Below, piece after piece: positions 7,053-58,342 of a DNA stretch of 64,000 nt (position 1 is the stretch's first letter; each line of letters starts with the position of its first letter). Source of the DNA: Emiliania huxleyi CCMP1516 (Eukaryota); NCBI RefSeq assembly GCF_000372725.1, contig NW_005201269.1, positions 248,001 through 312,000 on the forward strand, given 5' to 3'. The translations under genes and the position numbers were made by a program. The notes under the pieces are model-generated. The model ran no database searches. It was not told the DNA's origin and worked only from the letters and a program-made list of their open reading frames with translations.

Positions 7053-8132
7053 ATGCCGCTACCGCACGTGAGCGACGGCACGCTCCCTGCCCACGTGGAG
7101 GAGCAGCGCACGCGCGTCTCGATCCATGAGGACGCGCCGCGGATGACTGCGACAGTCGAGGCGGCTGGCGCCTACTTTGCGTCAGGCGTCGACAACTCCT
7201 TCTCGATGGAGCGCTTCCGCCGCGACCTTCGCATCGAGGTGCAGCAGCTCGACGAGGAAGAGATTGTCTTTGACGTGATCGGGATCGACGCGGCCATTGC
7301 CAACGCCTTTCGGCGGATCCTGCTCTCTGAGGTGCCTGCGATGGCAATCGACAAGGTGTTTATTCTCAACAACACGTCGATGACAGAGGACGAGGTCCTC
7401 GCGCACCGGCTCGGCCTCATCCCCATCCGCGCCGACCCGCGCCTCTTCCGCGAGCGTGTCGGCGATGAGGACCCGGACGAGCATCACGTCATCGCATTCC
7501 GGCTCGAGATCAAGTGCACGCGAGGCAACAAGGACGATCCCGGGTCGAGCGAGATGGTAAACTCGCGCGTCCTCTCCAGCCACCTGCAGTGGATCCCGCA
7601 GGGCGACCAGGAGGAGCGCTTCCGCGAGCGCGAGATCAAGCCGGTGCACGACGACATCCTGATCGCAAAGCTGCGGCCGGGTCAAGAGATCGTGCTCGAG
7701 GCGTGGTGCGAGAAGGGGATCGGCAAGACGCACTCCAAGTGGTCGCCCGTCGCCACCGCCTCGTACCGCCTGCTACCCGAGATCCGGGTCAAGCCCGCGC
7801 GCGCGCGCGACGCCGACACGGCCGAGGCGCCGCCTGCGGCCGCGCCGTCCATCTTCGACGCGGCGGAGGGCGCCGCGCCGCCGTCGGTGGCGACGCGGCC
7901 GCGGGCGTGCTCGATGCCGGGGCGGCACGGCGGCGCGGTGCCGGGGTGGGAGCATCGGGTGCAGTGCTCGCGCGTGCGCGACCACTTCATCTTCTCGGTC
8001 GAGTCGACCGGCATTCTGCCGCCAGAGGAGCTGTTTTGCGAGGCGGCCAAGGTGCTCATGCAAAAGGCGGCCGACTTAGCGCAGCTTCTCAAAGACGCCG
8101 TGTTAGGGCAGGGCGGCGGCGCCGACGAGTGA
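7053..8132 (+). CDS. POLR1C: DNA-directed RNA polymerases I and III subunit RPAC1 (AC40), intronless
   Basis: Contains FDVIGIDAAIANAFRRILLSEVPAMAIDKVFILNNTS..DEVLAHRLGLIP, DILIAKLRPGQEI, GIGKTHSKWSPVATASYRLLP and HFIFSVESTG. Confidence 0.95.
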   Translation: MPLPHVSDGTLPAHVEEQRTRVSIHEDAPRMTATVEAAGAYFASGVDNSFSMERFRRDLRIEVQQLDEEEIVFDVIGIDAAIANAFRRILLSEVPAMAIDKVFILNNTSMTEDEVLAHRLGLIPIRADPRLFRERVGDEDPDEHHVIAFRLEIKCTRGNKDDPGSSEMVNSRVLSSHLQWIPQGDQEERFREREIKPVHDDILIAKLRPGQEIVLEAWCEKGIGKTHSKWSPVATASYRLLPEIRVKPARARDADTAEAPPAAAPSIFDAAEGAAPPSVATRPRACSMPGRHGGAVPGWEHRVQCSRVRDHFIFSVESTGILPPEELFCEAAKVLMQKAADLAQLLKDAVLGQGGGADE

Positions 8133-33037: not shown

Positions 33038-33289
33038 CCGCGCGCGGAGCGCGCCGCTGGAAAGCACGCGCGGAGCGCGCCGCTGGGTAGGCGCGGAGCG
33101 CTGCCACTTGAGACTGGGCCTGTGGGTGGGCCGAGTGGTTCCTAGCGTGTGAGTCAAACTCTAAATAGAGATCGCATCTAGCCCTCCACAACCCTCAAAA
33201 TTTTCTTCGGGGCGCGCTCTGCGCGCGGCGCTCCGCGCCTCACTCCTTGAGCGTCATAGGCGCTGGCCCGCACATGTTCTGCAGCTTGG
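33038..33289. repeat. Second copy of the GCGCGGAGCGCGC-type dispersed repeat
   Basis: Matches 6055-6283, for example CCCTCCACAACCCTCAAAATTTTCTTCGGGGCGCGCTC. Confidence 0.8.
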
Positions 33290-33633
33290 GCGGAGGACCA
33301 GTGCAGAGTAGCCGCGCGGTCTTAGGTGGTGGTTGTGGCATGCGGACGAGATCGCAGATGCGTACACCGGGATGCGGCGTGCCCAAGAGCCTCCTTCCTA
33401 TCCTCCCCCACCTTCACCCTCCGATCGTCACCCCAGTGGGAAAAAGAAGCAAAACTGGAGGTGCTTTTGTCTCGCCTGTTCCCCCACTGTGGCGGCTGCC
33501 CGCCCAGTTTGGTGAGGTGAATAAAAAGAAAAATCGTCAGCTTCGAATCCAGGGCGAGCGGATTCGATTATCACAACTAAACGAAATATGGTGTGCCTTG
33601 GTCCTCTCCTTGAGTCGAGCGCAGCCGACAGCC

Positions 33634-34806
33634 ATGGCAAGCGTCGTGCTTCTCGTCTCACTGCCCTACGTCCTGGCTGCTCGGTGTGGCGTGGACAGCT
33701 GCACCGACGCCGTCCTCGCAACGCTCGCCCAAGATTTGACCGCCAACTACAAGGGCTTCTCATCGTGCGAGTCTCGCATCAACTGGGTGAAGAGCAACAC
33801 CGGCCGGAATGAGGAAAAGTCGTGCGAAAAGGTGGCAGAGGAATTTCCAGAAGAGTGTGGCGCCTGCCACCCCTTCCAATCGCCGCCTCTGCCGCAAACC
33901 TCGCCGCCACCGTCGCCGCCGCCACCACCATCACCACCGCCGCCGCCGTCACCACCGCCGCCGCCGTCACCACCACCGCCGCCGTCACCACCACCGCCGC
34001 CGTCACCACCACCGCCGCCGTCACCACCGCCGCCGCCGTCGCCGCAGTCCCCGTGCCTCTCGTGCGAGCCCTTGTGCGACTGGTCGACGCACGACTACAA
34101 GCTCGTGGGCACCGAGATGTCGTGCGTAGCGCGCGACCCGATGGGCGGTGAGTCGAGCGGTATGTCCTCAATGAGCATGGGCTGTGGCAACATGTCGTGC
34201 GCATCGACCCTCGCTTTCCTCCACGAGAACATGGTGATGCACCACGGAATGGCGATCGAGTTTACATGCGATGTTGAGGTGGATTTCGTTCGCGGCATGA
34301 TCCCGCACCACGCAGGCGCAGTCAAGATGTGCGACATCCTGCGTGGCTCGGTGAGCGTGGAGACGGACTCCGACGGCTCTGGCATGGGAATGATGCACTC
34401 GTCCGGGAGAATGCTAATGCCGGCCGCGATCGACCCCTTCCTCGAGGGCCTCTGCTCTGACATTGAGGAGACGCAGGCGCGTGAGATTGCGGAGATGGAG
34501 GCATGGCTCGCGAGCCGCAGCTTGGGCGCGTACACGTCCTGTGGCGACAGCCACGGCGGCGGCATGGATGGCCACGACATGGGCAGCGGCGATATGGACA
34601 TGGGCGGCGACATGCCTGGCCACGACATGGGCGGAGGCAGCATGGGCGGCGACATGCCTGGCCACGACATGGGCGGAGGCAGCATGGGCGGCGACATGCC
34701 TGGCCACGACATGGGCAGCGGCGATATGGACATGGGCGGCGACATGCCTGGCCACGACATGGGCGGAGGCAGCATGGGCGGCGAAATGCCTGGCCACGGC
34801 ATGTGA
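33634..34806 (+). CDS. Secreted protein with a Cys-rich domain, an (SPPPPP)n linker, a DUF305/CopM-like domain and a Met/His/Gly-rich repeat tail
   Basis: Signal-like MASVVLLVSLPYVLA, then VDFVRGMIPHHAGAVKM..IEETQAREIAEMEAWL, then GHDMGGGSMGGDMP repeats. Confidence 0.8.
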   Translation: MASVVLLVSLPYVLAARCGVDSCTDAVLATLAQDLTANYKGFSSCESRINWVKSNTGRNEEKSCEKVAEEFPEECGACHPFQSPPLPQTSPPPSPPPPPSPPPPPSPPPPPSPPPPPSPPPPPSPPPPPSPPPPPSPQSPCLSCEPLCDWSTHDYKLVGTEMSCVARDPMGGESSGMSSMSMGCGNMSCASTLAFLHENMVMHHGMAIEFTCDVEVDFVRGMIPHHAGAVKMCDILRGSVSVETDSDGSGMGMMHSSGRMLMPAAIDPFLEGLCSDIEETQAREIAEMEAWLASRSLGAYTSCGDSHGGGMDGHDMGSGDMDMGGDMPGHDMGGGSMGGDMPGHDMGGGSMGGDMPGHDMGSGDMDMGGDMPGHDMGGGSMGGEMPGHGM

Positions 34807-36725: not shown

Positions 36726-37670
36726 ATGGCGCCGACGACGACGGCCATGATCATTGTTGCGGCCGTCGCGCTGAGCTGGTGGGCGCGGCGACGGCGACGA
36801 TCGATCATCACACCCACGCAGTGGACGCAGTTTGACCGCGACGGGTACGTCGTGCTCCGCCCAGACCAGGTGTTTGCGTCGCCGCACGACGATTTGCTGT
36901 CTCTGCAACAGCGAATGGACGATATCATGCTTGGCACGTGTGCAGAACCGCCGCCTTACGAGCGCATGATGATGCAACTTGATTCGTGCACGGGTGTGTA
37001 TGCCGATGCCGGCGAACAGACGTTGGGCTACAAGGGTAAGACACTGCGCTACCGCAAGATTCAAAATCTCGACCTGGACGACCTCGTGATGGGCCTCTTT
37101 TTGCGACGGCCGTGCTTCGCGGAGGCCTGCGAGCGCGTGTACGGCAAGGGCACCCCCATCAGCTCCTTCCGCACCATGTTCTTCAACAAGCCGTGCGCTC
37201 CCTCGGCCGCCAGCTCGGGGGGCACCCACCTCCCGTGGCATCAGGACCGGTGGCGGTTTCTCGACATCGACCCGCTCCTCAACGCGTACCTCGCCCTCGA
37301 CCCCGCCTCGCCCGAGTCGGGCTGCGTGCGTCTGCTGCCGCGCTCGCACACGCTCGGCATCCTCAACCCTTCGCACCACTCGGCCTTCCTCACAGAGGGC
37401 CAGATTGAGTGTTACTGCGGCGCAAAGGCCGAGGCGAGCGGCGCGATCGTCGACCTCGTCCTGCAGCCTGGGGAGGTGGCGCTCATCCACAACTGGGTGG
37501 TGCACTCGTCGGGCACAAATCGCACCGCGCGAGCCCGCCGAGCGCTCTCCGTGAGCTACATGGACGCGAGGACGAAGCTGAACGAAGCTGAGTTTGGACG
37601 CTTCACCGGCGGCGAACTCAAGTCCTCCGGATACCCGGAGGGAGGCACGCATTTCCCACAGATCTTCTGA
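36726..37670 (+). CDS. Phytanoyl-CoA dioxygenase (PhyH) family 2OG-Fe(II) oxygenase with an N-terminal anchor
   Basis: QFDRDGYVVL, MFFNKP, LPWHQD, YLALDPASPESGCVRLLPRSH and PGEVALIHNWVVHSSGTNRTARARRAL. Confidence 0.9.
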   Translation: MAPTTTAMIIVAAVALSWWARRRRRSIITPTQWTQFDRDGYVVLRPDQVFASPHDDLLSLQQRMDDIMLGTCAEPPPYERMMMQLDSCTGVYADAGEQTLGYKGKTLRYRKIQNLDLDDLVMGLFLRRPCFAEACERVYGKGTPISSFRTMFFNKPCAPSAASSGGTHLPWHQDRWRFLDIDPLLNAYLALDPASPESGCVRLLPRSHTLGILNPSHHSAFLTEGQIECYCGAKAEASGAIVDLVLQPGEVALIHNWVVHSSGTNRTARARRALSVSYMDARTKLNEAEFGRFTGGELKSSGYPEGGTHFPQIF

Positions 37671-48199: not shown

Positions 48200-50611
48200 A
48201 TGCCCGCCTCGCGCGCCGCGCTTCGCACGCCGCCTCCACCGCCGTCTGCTGACAGCGCGCCGGGTGTCGAAGTCCCAAAGAACGTCCTCAAGGCGGCCGA
48301 GAACGGCCGATTGGGAGCGGTGCGATTGTGGCTGAATGAAGGCGGGAAGGCCGACACTCTCGCTAAGTTGCCCTCTGAGGTCAGCGGCCGTCCGATTCCA
48401 TGCACCCTGCTGATGCTCGCCGCGCAGCACGGGTACGCGCAGATTGTCGAGCTCCTCCTGAAGCGTGGCGCCGACATCAACTTGCAAACCAGTCTCGGCA
48501 CCACTGCGCTCAGCACTGCCGCCTACTACGGCCGCGAGCGAATGGTGGAGATGCTGCTGCAGCACGGTGCGGAGATCGGGACGGCGCTGGTATATTCCGC
48601 CCACGGCGGCAAAGAGCGGGTGGTCGATCTGCTGCTGCGGCGTGGCGCGGAGATCGACCTGCAAGACAAGAATGGTGGCACCGCGCTGATGCTCGCCGTC
48701 TGCTTCAACCGCCCCGCCGTCGTGCTCCGCCTGCTGCGGGCGGGCGCGGACATGACGTTGCGCGACGTGAACGGCTTTTCGGCGCTGCAGTGGGCCAAGG
48801 AGAAGGGCCACGCCGAGTGCGACCAGGCCTTCAAGACGTACCTCGGGGAGGTGGCGGCGGCGGGCCGGAGCAAGGCGCCGTCGGCCGAGGCAGGCGGCGC
48901 AGGCGCGGCGGGTGCGAGTGCCGCGGCCTCTGCTCCGAGCGGCGAGGGTGGCGCGGAGGCCAAGCCGAGCGGCGGTGCGGTGCCAGAGGAGGTTGTGGAC
49001 GCGGCTGGGCGAGGCGATGAGGCGTCGGTGCTGGCGTGGGTCGACGGCGGCGGGCAGGTCGACGCGGCGTTCGTGTGCGTCTATTCGGACGGCCCTGTGA
49101 ACGGCATGACGCTGCTGATACTCGCAATGATCTGCGGCCATGAGGAGTTGGTCGAGGCGCTGCTCCAGCGCGGCGCGGATGTCTCGTTGCCGAACAGCAA
49201 TGGCGACACCGCGCTGAATCTCGCCGCCGGGAATGGCCACGAGAAGCTGGTCGAGTTGGCGTTGCGGCACGGCGCGGAGATCAACGAGCGAAGCGAGTTT
49301 GGCATCACTGCACTGATAAACGCCGCCGGCAGAGGCCAGGAGAAAGTGGTCGACACGCTGATCCGGCACGGCGCGGCGATTGACCAGCAGGCCATCGACG
49401 GCGACACCGCACTGATTCGGGCCGCTTTCTTCGGCCACCTCGCCGCCGTGCTCCGCCTGCTGCGTGCGGGCGCCGACCCGAAGCTGTGCACTACGAGTGG
49501 CAAGACCGCGCTGCAGTGGGCCAAGGAGCAGGGCCACACCAAGTGCGTGCGCGCCCTCGAGGAGCATGCGGCGGCCGAAAAGGCGGCGGAGAAGGCGGCG
49601 AAGAAGGCGGCGGAGGCGGCGGAGAAGGCGGCGGCGGAGGCGGCGTGGGCCGCGGGAGCGTCGGAGAGGGCGGCGCAGAGGGCGGCGGAGGAGAAGGAGG
49701 CGGCGCGGCACGCCGAGGAGCTGCTGGCGGAGGTCGAGGCGGAGAAGCGCGCCAAGGGGAAGAAGGGCAAGAAGAAGAAGAAGAAGGGCGGCGGGGCGGG
49801 CGCAGCTGCTGGGCCGTCGCAGGAACCCGAGGAGGTTGCCGAGGCGCCGTCGGAGGCAGACGCAGCCGAGGCGGCGAAGAAGGCCGAGGAGGTGAGGCTT
49901 CTCCTGCTTCTCGAGCAGCTCACCGAGGAGAGGATCCGGTTCGGCATCACGGCGGAGAGCCAGGCCGCGGCGTCGGCCGAGGTGGCCGAGGCGTCACGCT
50001 TGGCCGAGGAGGCGGAGGAGGCGGAGGAGGAGGCGGAGGAGGAGGAGGAGGCCGAGACAGCGGCCGTGGCGGCGCTGGCTGTGGCCAAGGCTGTACGGGC
50101 GGAGTCCAGGGCGGCGGAGGAGGCGGCCAGGGCGGCGATGGACGAGGTCGTGGCGGCGCTGGAGGAGGCTAGGCGATGGAGAAGGCCACGGCGGCGCGTG
50201 CGGGGGACGAGACGGCGTTTGAGGAGGCGGCGGCCGCTGCAGAGGCAAGGGGTGCTGCTGCGGCCGCTGCAAGGGCCAGGGCGGCTGCCGCCAGGATGGC
50301 AGCGGAGGCGGCCCAGCGCTCATAGCGCGAGCTGCTCAGAAGAGGCGCGTGGCCACCTCTCTGCGAACTCTCTGGGTGGAGTTTGGGAGCTTCCATCGAG
50401 GACGCGCTCGCCGGAGGTTCATCATGCACAGATTTGTGTGTTTGGTGTTGTCGCTGTTCACTGGAGCCGGGGAGGTCGAGGGCGGGGGGGTGGTGCCTTG
50501 TGGGGCCGCGCGGGGAAAACCGGTGCCGGACACTGTGAGCGGCGCCGCCGTCCGCCCGCGCCACGGCGCCACGCGCGCGGGGCCGGCCGGGTTCGCGTTT
50601 TGTGGAGATGA
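48200..50611 (+). CDS. Ankyrin-repeat protein (two ankyrin blocks and an Ala/Glu-rich coiled coil) with a frameshifted tail
   Basis: TLLMLAAQHGYAQIVELLLKRGADIN and G.TAL..A repeats. A frameshift near 50170 is evident relative to the downstream paralogue. Confidence 0.85.
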   Translation: MPASRAALRTPPPPPSADSAPGVEVPKNVLKAAENGRLGAVRLWLNEGGKADTLAKLPSEVSGRPIPCTLLMLAAQHGYAQIVELLLKRGADINLQTSLGTTALSTAAYYGRERMVEMLLQHGAEIGTALVYSAHGGKERVVDLLLRRGAEIDLQDKNGGTALMLAVCFNRPAVVLRLLRAGADMTLRDVNGFSALQWAKEKGHAECDQAFKTYLGEVAAAGRSKAPSAEAGGAGAAGASAAASAPSGEGGAEAKPSGGAVPEEVVDAAGRGDEASVLAWVDGGGQVDAAFVCVYSDGPVNGMTLLILAMICGHEELVEALLQRGADVSLPNSNGDTALNLAAGNGHEKLVELALRHGAEINERSEFGITALINAAGRGQEKVVDTLIRHGAAIDQQAIDGDTALIRAAFFGHLAAVLRLLRAGADPKLCTTSGKTALQWAKEQGHTKCVRALEEHAAAEKAAEKAAKKAAEAAEKAAAEAAWAAGASERAAQRAAEEKEAARHAEELLAEVEAEKRAKGKKGKKKKKKGGGAGAAAGPSQEPEEVAEAPSEADAAEAAKKAEEVRLLLLLEQLTEERIRFGITAESQAAASAEVAEASRLAEEAEEAEEEAEEEEEAETAAVAALAVAKAVRAESRAAEEAARAAMDEVVAALEEARRWRRPRRRVRGTRRRLRRRRPLQRQGVLLRPLQGPGRLPPGWQRRRPSAHSASCSEEARGHLSANSLGGVWELPSRTRSPEVHHAQICVFGVVAVHWSRGGRGRGGGALWGRAGKTGAGHCERRRRPPAPRRHARGAGRVRVLWR

Positions 50612-50657
50612 TCTATATTAAATAAATAAATAAAACGGTCAAACTCTGAGACGAGAT

Positions 50658-52133
50658 GTGGGTGCTGAGCCGAGCGGCGGCGGGGCGGTGCCAAAGGAGG
50701 TTGTGGCAGCGGCTCGGCGAGGCGAGGAGGCGGCGGTGCTGATTTGGCTTGACGGCGGCGGGCGGGTCGATGCGACGTTCGTGCACGTCTTTTCGAACGG
50801 CCCTGAGAGCGGCATGACGCAGCTGATGATCGCAATGATGAGGGGCCACGAGGAGTTGGCCGAGGCGCTGCTCCAGCGCGGCGCGGATGCCTCGTTGCAG
50901 TCTAGCGATGGCGCCACCGCGCTGAGTAACGCCGCCTTGAATGGCCACGAGAAGCTGGTCGAGTTGGCGTTACGGCACGGCGCGGAGATCAACCTTCAGT
51001 GCCACTACGGCAACACTGCACTGATTTGGGCCGCTTACCGTGGCCACTCCGCCGCCCTCCTCTGCTTGCTGCGGGCGGGCGCAGACATGACGCTGCGCAC
51101 TACGGATGGCTGGACCGCGCTGCAGCTTGCCATGAACAAGGGCCACACTGAGTGCGTGCGCGCCCTCGCGGAGCATGCGGCGGCCAACAAGGCGGCGGAG
51201 AAGGCGGCGGCGGAGGCGGCGTGGGCCGCGGGAGCGGCGGAGAGGGCGGCGCAGAGGGCGGCGGAGGAGAAGGAGGCGGCGCGGCACGCCAAGGAGCTGC
51301 TGGCGGAGGTCGAGGCGGAGAAGCGCGCCAAGGGCAAGAAGGGCAAGAAGAAGAAGAAGAAGGGCGGCGGGGCGGGCGGGGCTGCGGGGCCGTCGCAGGA
51401 GCCCGAGGAGGTTGCCGAGGCGCCGTCGGAGGCAGACGCAGCCGAGGCGGCAAAGAAGGCCGAGGAGGTGAGGATCCTCCTGCTTCTCGAGACGCTCACC
51501 GAGGTGGCCGAGGCGGCGCGCTTGGCCGAGGAGGCGGAGGCGGCGGAGGAGGAGGCGGAGGAGGAGGAGGAGGCCGAGGCATCGGCTGAGGCGGCGCTGG
51601 GTGTGGCCAAGGCTGCACGGGCGGAGTCCAGGGCGGCGCAGGCGGAGGCCAGGGCGGCGTTTGAGGAGGCGAAGGCGGCGCTGAGCGGGGCCGACTCGGC
51701 TGTTGAGGGGGACGAGACGGCGTTTGAGGAGGCGGCGGCCGCGACAGAGGCGAGGCGTGCTGCTGCAGCCGCTGCGAGGGCCAGGGCGACTGCCGCCAGG
51801 ATGGCAGCGGAGGCGGCCGAGCGCTCATGCGCGAGCTGCTCAGAAGAAGCGCGTGGCCACCATCCTTCCTGCGGACTCTCTGGGTGGAGCTTGGGCGCTT
51901 CTGTCGAGGACACGCTCGCCGGAGGGTCATCATGCACCGCAACTGTGTGCGCGGTGACGGTTGTCGTTGTTCGTTTGAGACGTGGAGCTCAGAGCTGGTG
52001 GGGCGTGAACCGGGCCCGCGGGGCCGGACGCCGCGCGCCGCCCGGGGGCGGCGGCGGGCGGCCTGGCCGCGGTGCTCGGGGAGTGGCGCGAGATTGTGTG
52101 ACCGTGACGTGCGTTCCAAATTTGCAATATTAA
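50658..52133 (+). pseudogene. 5'-truncated tandem paralogue of the ankyrin gene
   Basis: It starts at EPSGGGAVPKEVV, homologous to the second ankyrin block of 48200-50611. There is no ATG at the homology start, and the coiled-coil region is near-identical. Confidence 0.7.
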
Positions 52134-52782
52134 ATCCGTTACTTCCAGGCGCCGGGGCCGGGCGCCGTGGTGGGCGCCGTGGCGGTGGAGGCCACGGTGG
52201 CGGCGCCGGGGCCGGGGGCCGTGGTGCGCTGGTGGGCGCCGTCCGTGGCGGCCATGTGACGACGAGAGCGACTGGATACCCGCGGCCGGACTCCATCCGG
52301 CACGCGTCGCTGGGCGCTCAGAGCCGCGTCCCCTGCTCGCCACGAACGACCCCGACGCCCAAGGCGCCCGAATCGAACGACAGGCGGCACGCGAAGACTG
52401 GTTGCAATCCCGCCGACCGCCAGGCCGCGGGATGATGTGCGCGGGGTCTTGTAGTGGGTCTCGGAAGCTCCACCGTAAAAAAATAAAAAAAGTGACGCGA
52501 ACCGGACGGACGTCAAGGTGCGAGACGCTGCTCAGGACTCGGTGTTGAGCACAAGTGCGTCGTCCGATCAGCCGTCGCGGCACCTGCTCGTCTCCTGCCC
52601 TCACGCACTCGCACACGTCCACGCACACGCACACACGTCGGCTTGCACCAACACACGGTGCTTCTTCGGGCGCCGCGAAAACCGCTCTCTCTCTCTCTCT
52701 CTCTCGGCCTTCCGGTGGCGCCGTCAGCGAGCGCCGTTGCCGTCTCATTGCTTCCTCAGGCGCCCAACGACTCGCCCTCTCA

Positions 52783-55700
52783 ATGGGTGCCGAGGACTAC
52801 CTCACCGATGGTGCCGTCCCACGGGAGCCGGGAGCGAGCGATACTCCCGACCTCGGTGCGGCAGACACGATCGACACCGAGTTTGTCCGTGAGAAGATCA
52901 AGAACCGTCACCTGCACGACGCCATCTACACGCGGTGCGGTTCGGTCATGATTGTGACCAACCCCTTCAAAAAGATGAACCTCTTCAGCAATGCGATCCT
53001 CGAGCAGTACAAGAATGCTCCGGTGCTGACGGAGCTGCCGCCGCACACGTTCGCCGTCGCCTCGACCGCTCACAGAGGCATGGTGCAGGAGGGCCTGAGC
53101 CAGGCCATCATCGTCAGCGGCGAGTCGGGAGCGGGCAAGACCGAGTCGGCCCGCCACATGATGCTTTACCTGAGGTATGTTTGCCAGACGAGCGAGGAGC
53201 TCGAGACGCGCCTCTACGGCTCGGACCCAATCACCGAGGCGTTCGGGTGCGCAAAGACGGTTCGCAACGACAACTCGTCGCGGATGGGCAAGTTCACCAC
53301 CCTCAACTTCGACTCGGGCTCAAAGATTCAGGTCCGCCTCCCGGCCTCCAGACCTCCCAACACTGCGCGCCGCTGACATGCCCACGCTCACGTCGCAGGG
53401 CGCCACTCTCAACACCTACCTGCTCGAGAAGACCCGCGTGACGACGCCGGGGCCAGGTCGGACGGGCCGAGATCGGCCCGACACATCGTCCGAGATTAGC
53501 GGCGGCGGCTGTCCGGCAAGCCTGCGGCCACGGGCGCGCCGCCACCCGCCGCGCCTCCCTCTGCGCAGGCGAGCGCGCGTACCACGCCTTTTACGCGCTG
53601 CTGCGGAGCGGCGAGGCTGACCGCGTCTCGTCGCTCAAGCTGACGACCGAGCCCGCCGACTACTTTTACCTCAACAACAACGGGGCGCACACGGGCGAGC
53701 CGGGTGGCAAGCGGACCGACAAGATGCTCTGGGATGAGCTCGACGAGGCGCTCAAGGCGGGCGGCTGGACGGCCGACGGGCTGACCGAGCTGTGGGCGCT
53801 GGTCGCCGCCTGCCTCCACACGGGCAACATCAACTTCGACCCGGCAAAGACGGACACGGCGACCATCACGGCTGACTCCGCCAAATGGGTAGAGAACGTC
53901 GAGGCCGTGCTGGGCCTCCCGGGGGGCGTGCTTCCAAAGGTGCTGACCAAGATGAAGATGAAGGTTGGCACCGAGATGATGGACAAGGACCTCACCGTCG
54001 CCAAGGCCGTGGACACGCGCGACGCGTTGGCCAAGGGCATCTTCTCGCGGCTCTTCGACAAGCTGATCGAGCAGATCAACACGTCGATGGCCGAGGCCAA
54101 GGGCTGCGACCGCAACGCGACCATCAAGAATGTCATCGGTATCGTCGACATCTTTGGCTTCGAGATCTTCGAGAAGAACTCGATGGAGCAGCTGTGCATC
54201 AACTTTGCCAACGAGAAGCTGCAGGCGCTCTTCACCAAGACCGTCTTCGCCGAGACCATGAAGGCGTACAAGGAGGAGGGCATCGACGTGGCAGACATCA
54301 CGTACAGCGACAACGCCAACCTCATCAAGACGTTCGAGACGCCAAAGACGGGCCTCTTCGGCCTCCTCACCGAGGAGTGCATCCTGCCAAAGGGCACGGA
54401 CGAGGGCTTCACCGAGAAGGTGATGGCGACGCACGGCAAGGGCGGCATCATCTTCCGGATGAAGGGCGTCGGCCCAAAGGAGGGCTTCGGCCTCAACCAC
54501 TTTGCCGGTCAGGTCAACTACGGCACCAAGGCCTGGCTCGACAAGAACCGCGACCCGATGAGCGGCGACCTGGTCCAGCTGATGCTCTCCGCGGACAACA
54601 AGCTCCTCAAGGAGCTCTTCACGGAGAAGCAGGAGGCCGACGCGGGCGGCGGCGGCGGCAAGAAGAAGTCGCCAAAGTTCAAGGGCGTGATGGACACCTT
54701 CACGGCGCAGCTCAACGACCTCAACGGCACGCTCGAGAAGTGCGCGCTCCACTTTGTCCGCTGCTTCAAGACCAACGACCAGAAGAAGAAGGAGTTCAAC
54801 GAGGACGAGGTGGTGATGCGGCAGCTGCAGACGTCCGGCGTGCTAGACGCGCTCCGCGTGTCGCGCGAGGGCTACCCCGACCGGATGATCTTCGAGACCT
54901 TCAGCTCGCAGTACATCGCGGTGCCCGGCCTCAAGACGGCCGCAGAGCTCGCCCCCAAGCCGCCCAAGGAGCGGGTCGACACGCTGCTCGAGCGGCTCGA
55001 GGTGCCCAAGGAGAAGTTTCGCTCCGGCAAGACGCGCGTCTTCTTTGCCGCCGGCGTGCTCGACGGGCTCCGCGCGAAGCGGACCGCGATGCAGGCCAAG
55101 ATCGCCACCGAGATCCAGCGGGTGGGCCGCGGCCTCGTCGCCCGCGCAAAGGCGCGCGAGCTGCGCAAGATCCGCGAGGCGGCGCTGCAGGCGATGGTCG
55201 CCGCGACACCGGGGGAGGACATCGAGGCGCTGCGCACGGCCATCAAGGGCGCCAAGGACGCCGGCCTCCCGAACTATCCCGCTGGCAAGGCCAAGTTCGA
55301 CGAGGCGGAGAAGCGGCTCGCCACGCTCGAGGCGGAGCTCAAGGCGCGCAAGGAGGCGGAGGCGGCGCTCGAGGCGGCCGTCGCCGGGACGGACATCCCG
55401 GCGCTCGAGGCGGCGCTCAAGAAGGCGGTCGACTGCAAGTCGGACAACAAGCCGCTGATCGAGCGCGGCGAGAAGCGCGTCGAGTTCCTCAAGGAGGAGG
55501 AGCGGCGCGCCGAGGAGGAGCGGAAGCGGAAGGAGGAGGAGGAGAGGAAGCTGGCCGAGCTCAAGGCGGCGGCGGAGAAGGACGCCTCCAAGAAGGCGGA
55601 GCTCGAGGCCGCCCAGGCCGCCGCCGCGGAGGCGGAGAAGAAGTCAGCCGCCGAGGCGGCCGCGCGCGAGGCTGCGGCGGCGGGCGGGGACGCGGCGATC

Positions 55701-57313
55701 GTGGCGCAGGCCGAGCAGGAGGCGGAGGCGGTCAAGGCGGAGGAGGAGGCGAAGCAGGTGGCGGAGGAGACGGCGCAGAAGACGCAGCTGGTCAAGTCGC
55801 AGAGCCGCATGCTCGCCGAGGCGAAGGCGGACCCCGAGCACGCCGCGGTGGCGGGCGACGCGGCGGCCAGCGCGGCGGCCAGCGCGGTGGCCAACGGCGC
55901 GGGATCGGACGAGGCGATCAAGGCGGGCATAGCGGCCGCGGAGGCGGCGGAGGCGGAGGCGCAGGAGCGGGCCATCCAGGAGAAGGCGCAGCTGCGTCGC
56001 GCGACGATCGACAAGCTGCGCAGCGAGGAGGTCAAGTTCCACTCGTTGCCGGAGGACGTGGTGGACTACGCCGACTACCTCGGGATGGACCTCAAGGAGG
56101 ACCTCGGGCTGCTGTGGATCGCCGACGAGGCGCTGCGCGCGGACGACCCCGACGGCTGGATCGAGCGCGAGGGGCCGACGGGCGACCACTACTACGAGCA
56201 CGAAGTGACGGGCCAGGTGCTCTACTCGCACCCGCTCGACTACCAGTTCCAGCAGCTCTACCTCGAGGAGAAGAAGAAGGGCGGAAGCGGGCAGCTGGGG
56301 AGGCGAAACTCGGACGACGACGACGACGACATGGCGCCGCCGAAGCAGGCGCGCAGCAGCAGTCGCGCCGCCCTGCTGGCCGCCACGGGCCCGGTGGGCA
56401 GCGCGGACGACGTGTTGCGGCGCGTGCAGCGGCTGCTGGGCACGACGCGGAGCGACGAGCTGCGGCAGCTGCTCATTCAGCCGTCGCTGTGCAAGACGCC
56501 CGTGCGCTGCTTTGTGATCCGGCACAAGTCGTTCATGGGCACCCCCCGCTTCGACTTCTTCATGTCCATCTCGCGCACCGACGACATGTACTGCTTCACG
56601 GCGAAGAAGTGGCCCCTCGGGATCAACAAGGGCTGCTACTACTCCATCTCGCTCGACCAGGAGGAGGCGAAGCGGTCCAAGGCGAGCACGCTCGAGTCGG
56701 GCGCCTTTGTCGGCAAGGTCCGCTCCGACAAGAAGTCGCTCGACTACACCCTGTACGACGACGGCACCTCGCCCGACGGAAAGGACAAGGGCGGCACCTC
56801 GGTGCTGCGCCACGAGCTGCTGCACATAAACTTTTCGAACTCGCTGCGCAACCGCGACCCAGGCGCCATGACGGTGGTCCTGCCCGAGGTGGACAGCGAC
56901 GGCAGCTTCGAGAGCGTGCAGCCGAGGCATCACACGGAGGGGCTCGAGGCGCTGCTCAAGCGCGGCGAGAAGGGCGGGCTGCTCGAGCTCAAGAACCGGC
57001 AGCCAAAGTGGAACGCGTCGAGCAACATGTACGTCCTCGACTTCCACGGCCGCGCCTCGCTCCCCTCGTGCAGAAACGTCCAGCTGGCGCCAAAGGCGCG
57101 CGCGCGCGGTCCGGGCTGCGCGCGCCGCTGCCTGAAGCGCTCTCACCCGCCCGCCACCTCCGCCCGCCTCAGGCCAAGGAGAGCGACGTCTGCTTCCTGA
57201 TGGGCAAGGTGGAGGAGAACCGCTTCAACATCGACTTCAAGGCGCCCTTCTCGGCCATGCAGGCGTTTGCGACCGCGATCATCATCTTTGACAACAGCTC
57301 CGGCGCCTTTTGA
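52783..57313 (+). CDS. Myosin motor - IQ - coiled coil - CEP164-type WW module - Tubby domain fusion protein (~1424 aa)
   Basis: Exons are 52783-53331, 53399-53456, 53569-57095 and 57173-57313. Myosin motifs are GESGAGKT, NDNSSRMGK, LLEKTRV, DIFGFE and EQLCINFANEKLQ. Tubby motifs are FVGKVRSD, LKNRQPKWN..YVLDFHGRASLPSCRNVQL and MGKV..FNIDFKAPFSAMQAF. Confidence 0.92.
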
Positions 57314-57748
57314 AAGGCCCGTCCGAGGCCGGGATATGGCTGGGCCTGGCCATATCGTTCGCCGTCAGCCTGCACGCAACGCCGCACACTCGACTCTACG
57401 CCGTCGAGACGGGCCTCCGCCTCCTCTTAAGCATAGCCCTAGACCCTGTACCCTCTAATGCTATTCTGCGCCGCGCCCCCCGTGCGTGAGTCCGCAGGCT
57501 TTGTGCCTCCTGTCTTACGGCACATACAGGGGCGCTGCCGGCCCCCGCGCACCGCGCACGCTGTGCTCTTCCGGCCTCGCTCCTCCATGTTTGTGGCGTG
57601 ATGTATCTTCCATGTTGGGCTGTGCGAGGGGTTTACGTTTTGTTTAAGTGCTGAAGAAGGATAAAACAGCGAGATCGCGCAAACGCGCGCTTCAGATCCT
57701 GGCGCCTCCAGCCACGTACATAAGAGAGTACGAGATGGCACACAGAGG

Positions 57749-58342
57749 CTAGTCCCAGAGCTCATCGTCATCAAGCGCCTCTGCCATGGCCGCATCGCCG
57801 CTCCCCTCCCGGGCTGGCTGCGCGGGCGCGAGCGCGTCGGTCGCCGCCTGCGCTGCCCCGAGGTGGATTGGTATCCTCGGGCCCGCCGACTTGGGCCGGA
57901 CGGGCGGCTCGGCACCGCTGCGCAGCTGAGACGGCGTCTCGTCCTCCGCCGCCTCCACCGCCGGCGCGCGCGGCACCAGATCGTAGTTCGCGGCGAGCAG
58001 ACAGAACTTTTGAGGCGGAAGCTGGATGCCAGACGTGCTGGTCGGCGCGGCGGGCAGCGGCTGGCCGTTGCGCTCGCGCGCAAGCCACTCAAGGAAGGGC
58101 GCCGAGGTGACCTGCGCCTCTGCAGACTTGAGCCTGCACGCCAGTCTGACGTCCTCGCACTCCACCGCCGTGCGGCCCGCGTGCGCCGCGTAGTCTGCGC
58201 CTTCCGAAAAGACCTCGGCGCAATGAGCGTGCATGAAGGTGAGGAGCTGGTGGAGGACGCCCGGCTCGTAGTCGGTCACACCCATCGAGCGCAGGATCTC
58301 GTCGACGGTCGCGGCGTCGCGCGGCGCGCCGGAGCTCGACAT
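57749..58342 (-). CDS. TAF9: TFIID subunit TAF9 (histone fold)
   Basis: PRDAATVDEILRSMGVTDYEPGVLHQLL..YAAHAGR..EDVRLA..LARERNGQPLP..GIQLPP.KFCLLAANY. Confidence 0.9.
   Translation of the reverse strand: MSSSGAPRDAATVDEILRSMGVTDYEPGVLHQLLTFMHAHCAEVFSEGADYAAHAGRTAVECEDVRLACRLKSAEAQVTSAPFLEWLARERNGQPLPAAPTSTSGIQLPPQKFCLLAANYDLVPRAPAVEAAEDETPSQLRSGAEPPVRPKSAGPRIPIHLGAAQAATDALAPAQPAREGSGDAAMAEALDDDELWD

What the first reader, a model, noticed from the sequence alone, without database searches (positions are those of the whole stretch)
52783..57313. Myosin fused to a CEP164-like WW module and a Tubby domain
Seen in the sequence: one exon (53569-57095) runs from the motor through the IQ motif and coiled coil into DVVDYADYLGMDLKEDLGLLWIADEALRADDPDGW..GDHYYEHEVTGQVLYSHPLDYQFQQL and then a Tubby domain, so the fusion is not a gene-model artefact. 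Established knowledge: that helical-plus-WW pattern resembles the CEP164 N-terminus, a distal-appendage protein, and Tubby domains bind PI(4,5)P2 and traffic ciliary cargo. I do not know this architecture among standard myosin classes. Inference: an actin motor linking phosphoinositide membranes to the basal body, flagella or haptonema, or to scale secretion.
Basis: partly seen in the sequence, partly recalled or inferred. Interest (0 to 1): 0.85.

Follow-up and report, generated by a model that had tools for sequence, protein, structure and literature searches.

The report
Haptophyte myosin with Tubby lipid anchor
This algal gene really does join an actin motor to a CEP164-like protein-binding module and a Tubby domain that likely grips the cell membrane; the design is shared across haptophyte algae and seems undescribed in this form, but nothing found here ties it to flagella.

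Summary
The gene has four exons and encodes 1,424 aa. All three introns are spliced in RNA contigs of 4 of 4 runs. The order is motor, one IQ, two helical hairpins, a charged single-helix segment (not a clear coiled coil), a CEP164-N-terminal-like helix/WW module (PDB E 3e-9) and a Tubby domain (E 5e-20).

It is identical over 1,418 aligned residues to Emiliania huxleyi model 110275. That model lies in the Myosin XXXII block of a 2014 survey's tree. The survey names Tub tails only for class XXI, which fits an Ectocarpus myosin lacking the module.

Relatives span haptophytes in three tail types: module-Tub, module-Tub-WD40 and module-PDZ. The Tubby PI(4,5)P2 residues are kept. The TTBK2-binding groove of CEP164 is only half kept, and the module recurs in many unrelated proteins.

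Best reading: a plus-end, probably single-headed motor that grips PI(4,5)P2 membrane and a proline-rich partner (0.55). A basal-body or flagellar role is unsupported, not excluded (0.2). Verdict: new variant of a known kind.

The parts
52783..53331 (+). Exon 1 (ATG; motor N-part with P-loop and switch I)
53332..53398 (+). Intron 1, 67 nt, GT-AG
   Evidence: 4 of 4 runs; 4 of 4 runs
53399..53456 (+). Exon 2 (58 nt, motor)
53457..53568 (+). Intron 2, 112 nt, GT-AG
   Evidence: one contig of run X9 reads through it unspliced
53569..57095 (+). Exon 3 (3,527 nt): rest of motor, neck, module, most of Tubby domain
57096..57172 (+). Intron 3, 77 nt, GC-AG
   Evidence: 77-nt skip in 4 of 4 runs (the tool's joint can slide by 4 nt, GC-AG is my placement); protein P0036 agrees
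57173..57313 (+). Exon 4: last strands and C-terminal helix of the Tubby domain, stop codon
   Evidence: (Tub 1e-9, profile 218-256)
52846..55061 (+). Myosin motor domain (aa 22-700); P-loop, switch I and II, relay intact; acidic TEDS site (E338); no insert between converter and IQ
55101..55169 (+). Single IQ-like motif (aa about 714-736)
   Evidence: one pattern match; aligns gap-free with the first IQ of myosin II; not a Pfam IQ hit
55194..55469 (+). Two helical hairpin repeats (aa 745-836), conserved in subfamily A
   Evidence: AlphaFold pLDDT 92.6; no PDB fold match at E<=0.001; alignment
55470..55616 (+). E/R/K-rich single-alpha-helix-like segment (aa 837-885)
   Evidence: 63% E/R/K, 12% LIVMF, no G/P, 0.65 i+3/i+4 charge pairs per residue
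55617..55976 (+). Ala-rich helical spacer (aa 886-1005), longer in this copy than in relatives
   Evidence: 41% Ala; spacer region 176 aa here against 96-134 aa in full-length relatives
56043..56273 (+). CEP164-NTD-like module: WW domain inserted in a three-helix bundle (aa 1028-1104)
56457..57304 (+). Tubby domain (aa 1166-1422), with basic residues equivalent to mouse K330, R332, R363

Best explanation
The gene encodes an expressed haptophyte myosin whose tail carries a CEP164-like helix/WW module and a Tubby domain, and it likely works as a plus-end-directed, probably single-headed motor that grips PI(4,5)P2-rich membrane through the Tubby domain and a proline-rich partner through the module. 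It would tether or pull membrane (plasma membrane, or vesicles docking there) along cortical actin. Shown: gene structure, splicing, domain identity, conservation of catalytic and lipid-binding residues. Inferred: plus-end direction (no reverse-gear insert), activity without loop phosphorylation (acidic TEDS site), monomeric state with a lever extended by the helical hairpins and the single helix, lipid binding, and the existence of a proline-rich ligand. By analogy it works like class I myosins, which couple actin to PI(4,5)P2 through their tail (recalled), with a Tubby barrel doing that job.
For: Motor motifs are intact and shared with relatives. Converter to IQ aligns without a gap to myosin II. 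The TEDS site is E or D in all 18 of 23 alignment rows that cover it. K330, R332 and R363 equivalents are basic in 20, 22 and 22 of 22 non-frameshifted rows (the window and P0036 are the same gene). K330/R332 mutations lower PI(4,5)P2 affinity of tubby (PMC10445746 passages); the role of R363 is recalled. The fold-critical module residues P59, W62, H86, P87 and the groove residue Y73 are kept in 15 of 15 subfamily-A proteins, W84 in 14 of 15. The architecture recurs in 16 other 90%-clusters, with named members from Tisochrysis, Isochrysis, Phaeocystis, Prymnesium, Chrysochromulina and Haptolina. Sister subfamilies keep motor plus module and vary the end domain (Tub-WD40, PDZ), as expected of cargo-selecting tails.
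Against: No binding, motility or localisation data. This copy is the odd one: W84 is Y and F75 is E, so its WW groove may be weak or altered; subfamilies B and C lack W84 altogether, so the module may not bind polyproline there. The second PI(4,5)P2 patch of tubby (residues 301-305) keeps about two basic residues by my reading. Monomer versus dimer rests on composition alone; no coiled-coil predictor was run. PI(4,5)P2 distribution in haptophytes was not checked.
Confidence: 0.55

Rival explanations
1. Ciliary or basal-body motor: the module docks the myosin at transition fibres or the haptonema base, and the Tubby domain carries membrane cargo there, as TULP3 does.
For: The only solved relatives of the two tail domains are CEP164 and Tubby/TULP proteins. 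All named carriers are haptophytes, a group with flagella and a haptonema (morphology recalled).
Against: The module occurs in 1,844 clusters, with IQ, EF-hand, U-box, Sel1, LsmAD, PLAT, SH3 and PDZ partners, so it is no marker of CEP164 function. F77 is kept in 0 of 33 myosin modules and F75 in 0 of 15 in subfamily A. The region matching CEP164's extra beta-strand (D10/Q11) is predicted helical. Only the C-terminal domain of TULP3 aligned (the query was the Tubby region). The gene is intact in the CCMP1516 model, a strain without any complete dynein heavy chain (PMC4438323). That point is weak, since 63 of 82 flagellar genes are still detected there.
Confidence: 0.2
2. Scale or coccolith secretion motor: it moves or docks Golgi-derived scale vesicles at the plasma membrane. 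This is a specific version of the best explanation.
For: The family spans scale-bearing calcifying and non-calcifying haptophytes (scale biology recalled). Actin and other myosins are in coccolith and coccosphere proteomes (PMC10290126).
Against: The myosin group named in that paper's text is a 1,568-aa protein with only a Myosin_head hit. PF01167, Tubby and 110275 occur in none of its 11 supplementary text files, and the two whole-word 'Tub' hits are tubulin. A second coccosphere myosin, EhG13973.1, is listed without Pfam terms and could not be compared.
Confidence: 0.15
3. The module is mainly structural or autoinhibitory: it folds back on the head or the Tubby domain and binds no outside proline-rich ligand.
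For: Fold residues are invariant while ligand-groove residues vary: W84 is R in 14 of 14 subfamily-B and N/S/T in 4 of 4 subfamily-C modules. The exposed R93 position is Q in 29 of 33 myosin modules.
Against: Y73 is kept in 33 of 33 and W84 in 14 of 15 subfamily-A modules. The model joins module and Tubby by a disordered linker (pLDDT under 50).
Confidence: 0.1

Closest known systems
Myosin class XXXII (Sebe-Pedros et al. 2014, PMC3942036)
   Same: This gene (Ehux_110275 and 115214) and its paralogue (436181, 213306) are in that dataset and lie in the tree block labelled XXXII.
   Different: The main text never mentions XXXII. No tail with a CEP164-like module is described in the passages read. 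The figures, which may draw the architecture, could not be seen.
Myosin class XXI with Tub tail (Ectocarpus CBJ26663)
   Same: Myosin motor plus C-terminal Tubby domain.
   Different: No module. Different superclade in the published scheme (V-like versus VI-like). Its Tub falls outside the haptophyte Tub group (SH-aLRT 99, two outgroup rows only) and its basic triad is altered. Probably a separate fusion, but my motor tree does not reject one clade (p 0.29).
CEP164 N-terminal domain (PDB 7NWJ, 7O3B; PMC8752127)
   Same: WW inserted in a three-helix bundle; gap-free 77-residue alignment; P59, W62, Y73, H86, P87 kept.
   Different: Internal to a myosin tail. XP2-groove F75/F77 absent, R93 is Q, W84 is Y in this copy. 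No sign of the N-terminal beta-strand.
Tubby / TULP1 / TULP3
   Same: Complete barrel-plus-helix domain (TM-score 0.88 to TULP1 by target length) with the canonical PI(4,5)P2 pocket residues.
   Different: Fused to a motor instead of the TULP N-terminus that binds IFT-A (recalled); second basic patch reduced.
Class I, VI, VII and X myosins (functional analogues, recalled)
   Same: Lipid-binding tail on a single-headed motor (class I); single-alpha-helix lever extension (VI, VII, X).
   Different: Different tail domains; no class VI reverse-gear insert.

Membership tests
Myosin superfamily (active motor) | Complete motor domain with P-loop, switch I, switch II, relay and converter | tested here: met
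   Pfam 6e-184 over profile 4-678; motifs listed; minor changes (switch I F to M, shared with the E. huxleyi paralogue)
Myosin class XXXII (2014 scheme) | Motor domain groups with the E. huxleyi + Guillardia clade | tested here: met
   Identity with Ehux_110275 and its place in the text layer of Fig. S2 between the XXXII and XXX labels; clade limits read from text order, figure not seen
Myosin class XXI (2014 scheme) | Motor in the V-like stramenopile clade with Esil_CBJ26663 and Ehux_461567 | tested here: not met
   Published tree lists this gene outside the XXI block. My own tree, lacking class V, VI and XI references, does not join them but cannot reject it
Myosin class VI (minus-end) | Insert 2 between converter and IQ | tested here: not met
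   Gap-free alignment to myosin II across converter-IQ
CEP164-NTD fold | WW inserted in three-helix bundle with P59, W62, H86, P87 | tested here: met
CEP164 orthologue / TTBK2 receptor | XP groove Y73 + W84 | tested here: inconclusive
   Y73 kept; W84 is Y here and W in 14 of 15 subfamily-A proteins
CEP164 orthologue / TTBK2 receptor | XP2 groove F75 + F77 and N-terminal D10/Q11 strand | tested here: not met
   E and E here; 0 of 15 subfamily-A proteins keep either Phe; helix predicted upstream
CEP164 orthologue / TTBK2 receptor | Localisation to distal appendages | not testable with these tools
   needs imaging
Tubby domain family | Beta-barrel filled by C-terminal helix | tested here: met
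   Pfam Tub 3e-44 over profile 3-256; Foldseek E 2e-19
Tubby domain family | Canonical PI(4,5)P2 pocket K330, R332, R363 | tested here: met
   (sequence level only)
TULP3-type ciliary adaptor | N-terminal IFT-A-binding region | not tested
   Feature recalled; only the Tubby region was aligned to TULP3

The most novel reading that the evidence does not exclude
Haptophytes have an ancient, lineage-wide myosin clade built on a captured CEP164-type module with exchangeable end domains (Tubby, Tubby-WD40, PDZ). It delivers PI(4,5)P2-marked membrane cargo along actin to the flagellar or haptonema base: an actin-driven counterpart of the TULP3 route, not described in the papers searched.
Probability: 0.15. 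Interest if true: 0.8.

Novelty: new variant of a known kind. Interest (0 to 1): 0.45.

Why it matters
Haptophyte myosins are many and functionally unassigned. Actin is implicated in scale and coccolith secretion, but no motor-membrane link is known to me. A conserved motor with a recognisable lipid-binding domain and a recognisable peptide-binding module gives a concrete, testable candidate. The CEP164 N-terminal fold also turns out to be a mobile eukaryotic domain rather than a CEP164 signature, so orthology calls made from it alone are risky. Myosin-Tubby fusions probably arose twice, in brown algae and in haptophytes.

Tried and rejected
No whole genome was held, so paralogues and CEP164/TTBK2 orthologues could not be counted. 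The ESM Atlas did not answer.

Gene-model artefact: rejected. The JGI model's N-terminal extension made of upstream ankyrin-gene pieces: not supported. Myosin contigs start at 52526-52891 and no joint to the upstream genes is listed (contigs only, so weak).

The neck hairpins have no PDB match at E<=0.001 (the wide VIA search was not run). An AU test of all Tub myosins in one clade without the PDZ group was rejected (p 0.002), but it confounds two questions. The cleaner tests were not significant (A+B+C+Ectocarpus p 0.29; A+B without C p 0.055). Trees were 'quick' LG+G4 with SH-aLRT only, 42 of 45 chosen motors (3 too short), and no class V, VI, XI, XXIII or XXX references.

Expression in haploid versus diploid cells could not be told from coded, contig-only runs. 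Literature searches with no paper: myosin + tubby domain + haptophyte, myosin + Phytophthora + tubby + motor domain, myosin + 'Tub domain'. Earlier scan findings: nothing relevant. No complex prediction was sent, as no partner is known.
Full report
Observation. The + strand holds a four-exon gene: 52783-53331, 53399-53456, 53569-57095 and 57173-57313. The introns are 67 nt (GT-AG), 112 nt (GT-AG) and 77 nt (GC-AG), and the product is 1,424 aa with no internal stop. RNA contigs skip exactly these lengths in 4 of 4 runs laid, two recorded as RNA and two guessed. The first two introns are also skipped in all four runs of a second call, three of them new. A database protein, P0036, equals the model at 1,423 of 1,424 residues. 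The long third exon carries motor, neck, module and most of the Tubby domain in one frame, and contigs bridge motor to module and module to Tubby. The fusion is real and transcribed.

Domain anatomy. The motor (aa 22-700) is complete (Pfam 6e-184), with intact P-loop and switches and glutamate at the TEDS position (the rule itself is recalled). It aligns to myosin II without a gap from converter to IQ, so the class VI reverse-gear insert is absent. One IQ-like motif follows. AlphaFold models the neck as all-helical with two short hairpins (pLDDT 92.6), with no PDB match. Residues 837-885 are 63% E/R/K with few hydrophobic residues, which fits a single alpha-helix better than a coiled coil (no coiled-coil predictor was run). 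The module (aa 1028-1104) aligns without gaps to CEP164(1-109) at E 3e-9. The Tubby domain (aa 1166-1422) matches Tub/TULP at E 5e-20. The tail model confirms both folds.

Identity and prior classification. The protein is identical over 1,418 aligned residues to Emiliania huxleyi model EMIHUDRAFT_110275. That model adds about 334 upstream residues that match the neighbouring ankyrin-gene ORFs by eye and drops 6 aa at intron 3. It and 115214, 436181 and 213306 are in the dataset of Sebe-Pedros et al. 2014 (PMC3942036). They lie in the block of Fig. S2 labelled Myosin XXXII, with a Guillardia sequence (read from the text layer). The paper's text lists 'IQ, WW, PX and Tub' tails for class XXI and never mentions XXXII. 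The class XXI Tub fits Ectocarpus CBJ26663, which is in the XXI block, has motor plus Tub and lacks the module. So a Tub tail on a myosin is in print, and this gene is classified, but I found no description of motor + CEP164-like module + Tubby. Figures that could show it were not visible.

Family. A search with the tail gave 18 hits; 16 of them, apart from the near-self hit and the frameshifted paralogue model, carry Myosin_head + WW + Tub. Named members are Tisochrysis, Isochrysis, Phaeocystis, Prymnesium, Chrysochromulina and Haptolina. An unfiltered search with the module found 1,844 clusters. Of 58 of the listed hits scanned with Pfam, 9 were myosins, among them module-PDZ and module-Tub-WD40 forms; others had IQ, EF-hand, SH3, U-box, Sel1, LsmAD or PLAT partners. 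The Tub-WD40 form has named members in Pavlovales, Prymnesium parvum, Chrysochromulina and Haptolina. In a quick motor tree the three module-bearing groups (15, 14 and 3 rows) form one side of a branch (SH-aLRT 99), and their Tubby domains group apart from Ectocarpus and TULP2 (99). Outgroups were thin, and one clade with Ectocarpus is not rejected (p 0.29). I infer that motor + module + Tubby predates the split of Pavlovophyceae and Prymnesiophyceae and is probably independent of the brown-algal fusion.

Functional residues. In tubby, K330 and R332 form the canonical PI(4,5)P2 pocket (PMC10445746 passages). The equivalents, and R363 (role recalled), are basic in 20, 22 and 22 of 22 non-frameshifted rows. 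In CEP164, P59, W62, H86 and P87 are conserved at the bundle-WW junction; Y73 and W84 form the XP groove and F75 and F77 the XP2 groove for TTBK2 (PMC8752127 passages). The fold residues and Y73 are kept in 33 of 33 myosin modules. W84 is kept in 14 of 15 subfamily-A proteins, with Y only in this copy, and in none of the 18 others. F77 is kept in none. The module is therefore CEP164-like in fold but is not a TTBK2-type receptor, and this copy is a diverged paralogue (end branch 0.38 against 0.11 for 436181).

Mechanism. Most likely (0.55) it is a plus-end, probably single-headed motor with an extended helical lever that binds PI(4,5)P2 membrane through Tubby and a proline-rich partner through the module, tethering or pulling membrane on cortical actin. 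Direction, oligomeric state, lipid binding and partner are inferred. A basal-body or flagellar role (0.2) rests on the best-known homologues only. Against it: the module is mobile (65 of 150 listed hits have several copies, a count inflated by score ranking), the TTBK2 groove is half lost, and the gene is intact in the CCMP1516 model although that strain has no complete dynein heavy chain (PMC4438323). The last point is weak, as only 19 of 82 flagellar genes are missing there. Scale or coccolith secretion (0.15) is a possible specific use, but the myosin group named in the text of PMC10290126 is a different, 1,568-aa protein, and no Tub-domain protein appears in its supplementary text files. 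An autoinhibitory or structural role for the module gets 0.1.

What I read. PMC3942036: passages, section 25, supplement parts 1-3 and term searches (sequences cut at 400 letters). PMC5583752: passages and the species table only. PMC8752127, PMC10445746, PMC4438323, PMC2784329, PMC13334186: passages. PMC10290126: passages and term searches of 11 supplementary files; its myosin figure is an image. All other papers: search listings only.

Verdict. The new parts are the CEP164-fold module, its haptophyte-wide clade with exchangeable end domains, and the probable second origin of a myosin-Tubby fusion. New variant of a known kind; interest 0.45.

Noticed in passing
window 48200-52133 (+): Two tandem, partly duplicated ankyrin-repeat ORFs with E/A/K-rich tails; the JGI models 110275 and 115214 begin with pieces of them, which RNA contigs do not support.
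   Followed up: partly
window 57749-58342 (-): TAF9 (TFIID-31kDa) gene, convergent with the myosin gene.
   Followed up: no
P0019 (EMIHUDRAFT_436181): The paralogue's database model has no Tub match after the module, while fragments P0020 and P0021 with the same module sequence carry Tub: likely a mis-spliced or frameshifted model.
   Followed up: partly
P0123-P0126, P0134, P0181, P0195: Large non-myosin proteins with several copies of the CEP164-type module, together with IQ, EF-hand or PLAT domains; unnamed, taxa not determined.
   Followed up: no
P0198, P0317, P0163, P0168, P0199: Myosin-module-PDZ subfamily; a Myosin_head + PDZ protein (EhG29721.1) is differentially abundant in the C-versus-N-cell proteome of PMC10290126 (log2FC -0.67); whether it belongs to this subfamily was not checked.
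   Followed up: partly
window 57440-57670 (+): 3' UTR with strain-variable short insertions in RNA contigs; contigs end near 57652-57666.
   Followed up: no
window 7053-8132, 33274-34806, 36726-37670: RNA polymerase Rpb3-type subunit, DUF305 protein and PhyH dioxygenase ORFs.
   Followed up: no
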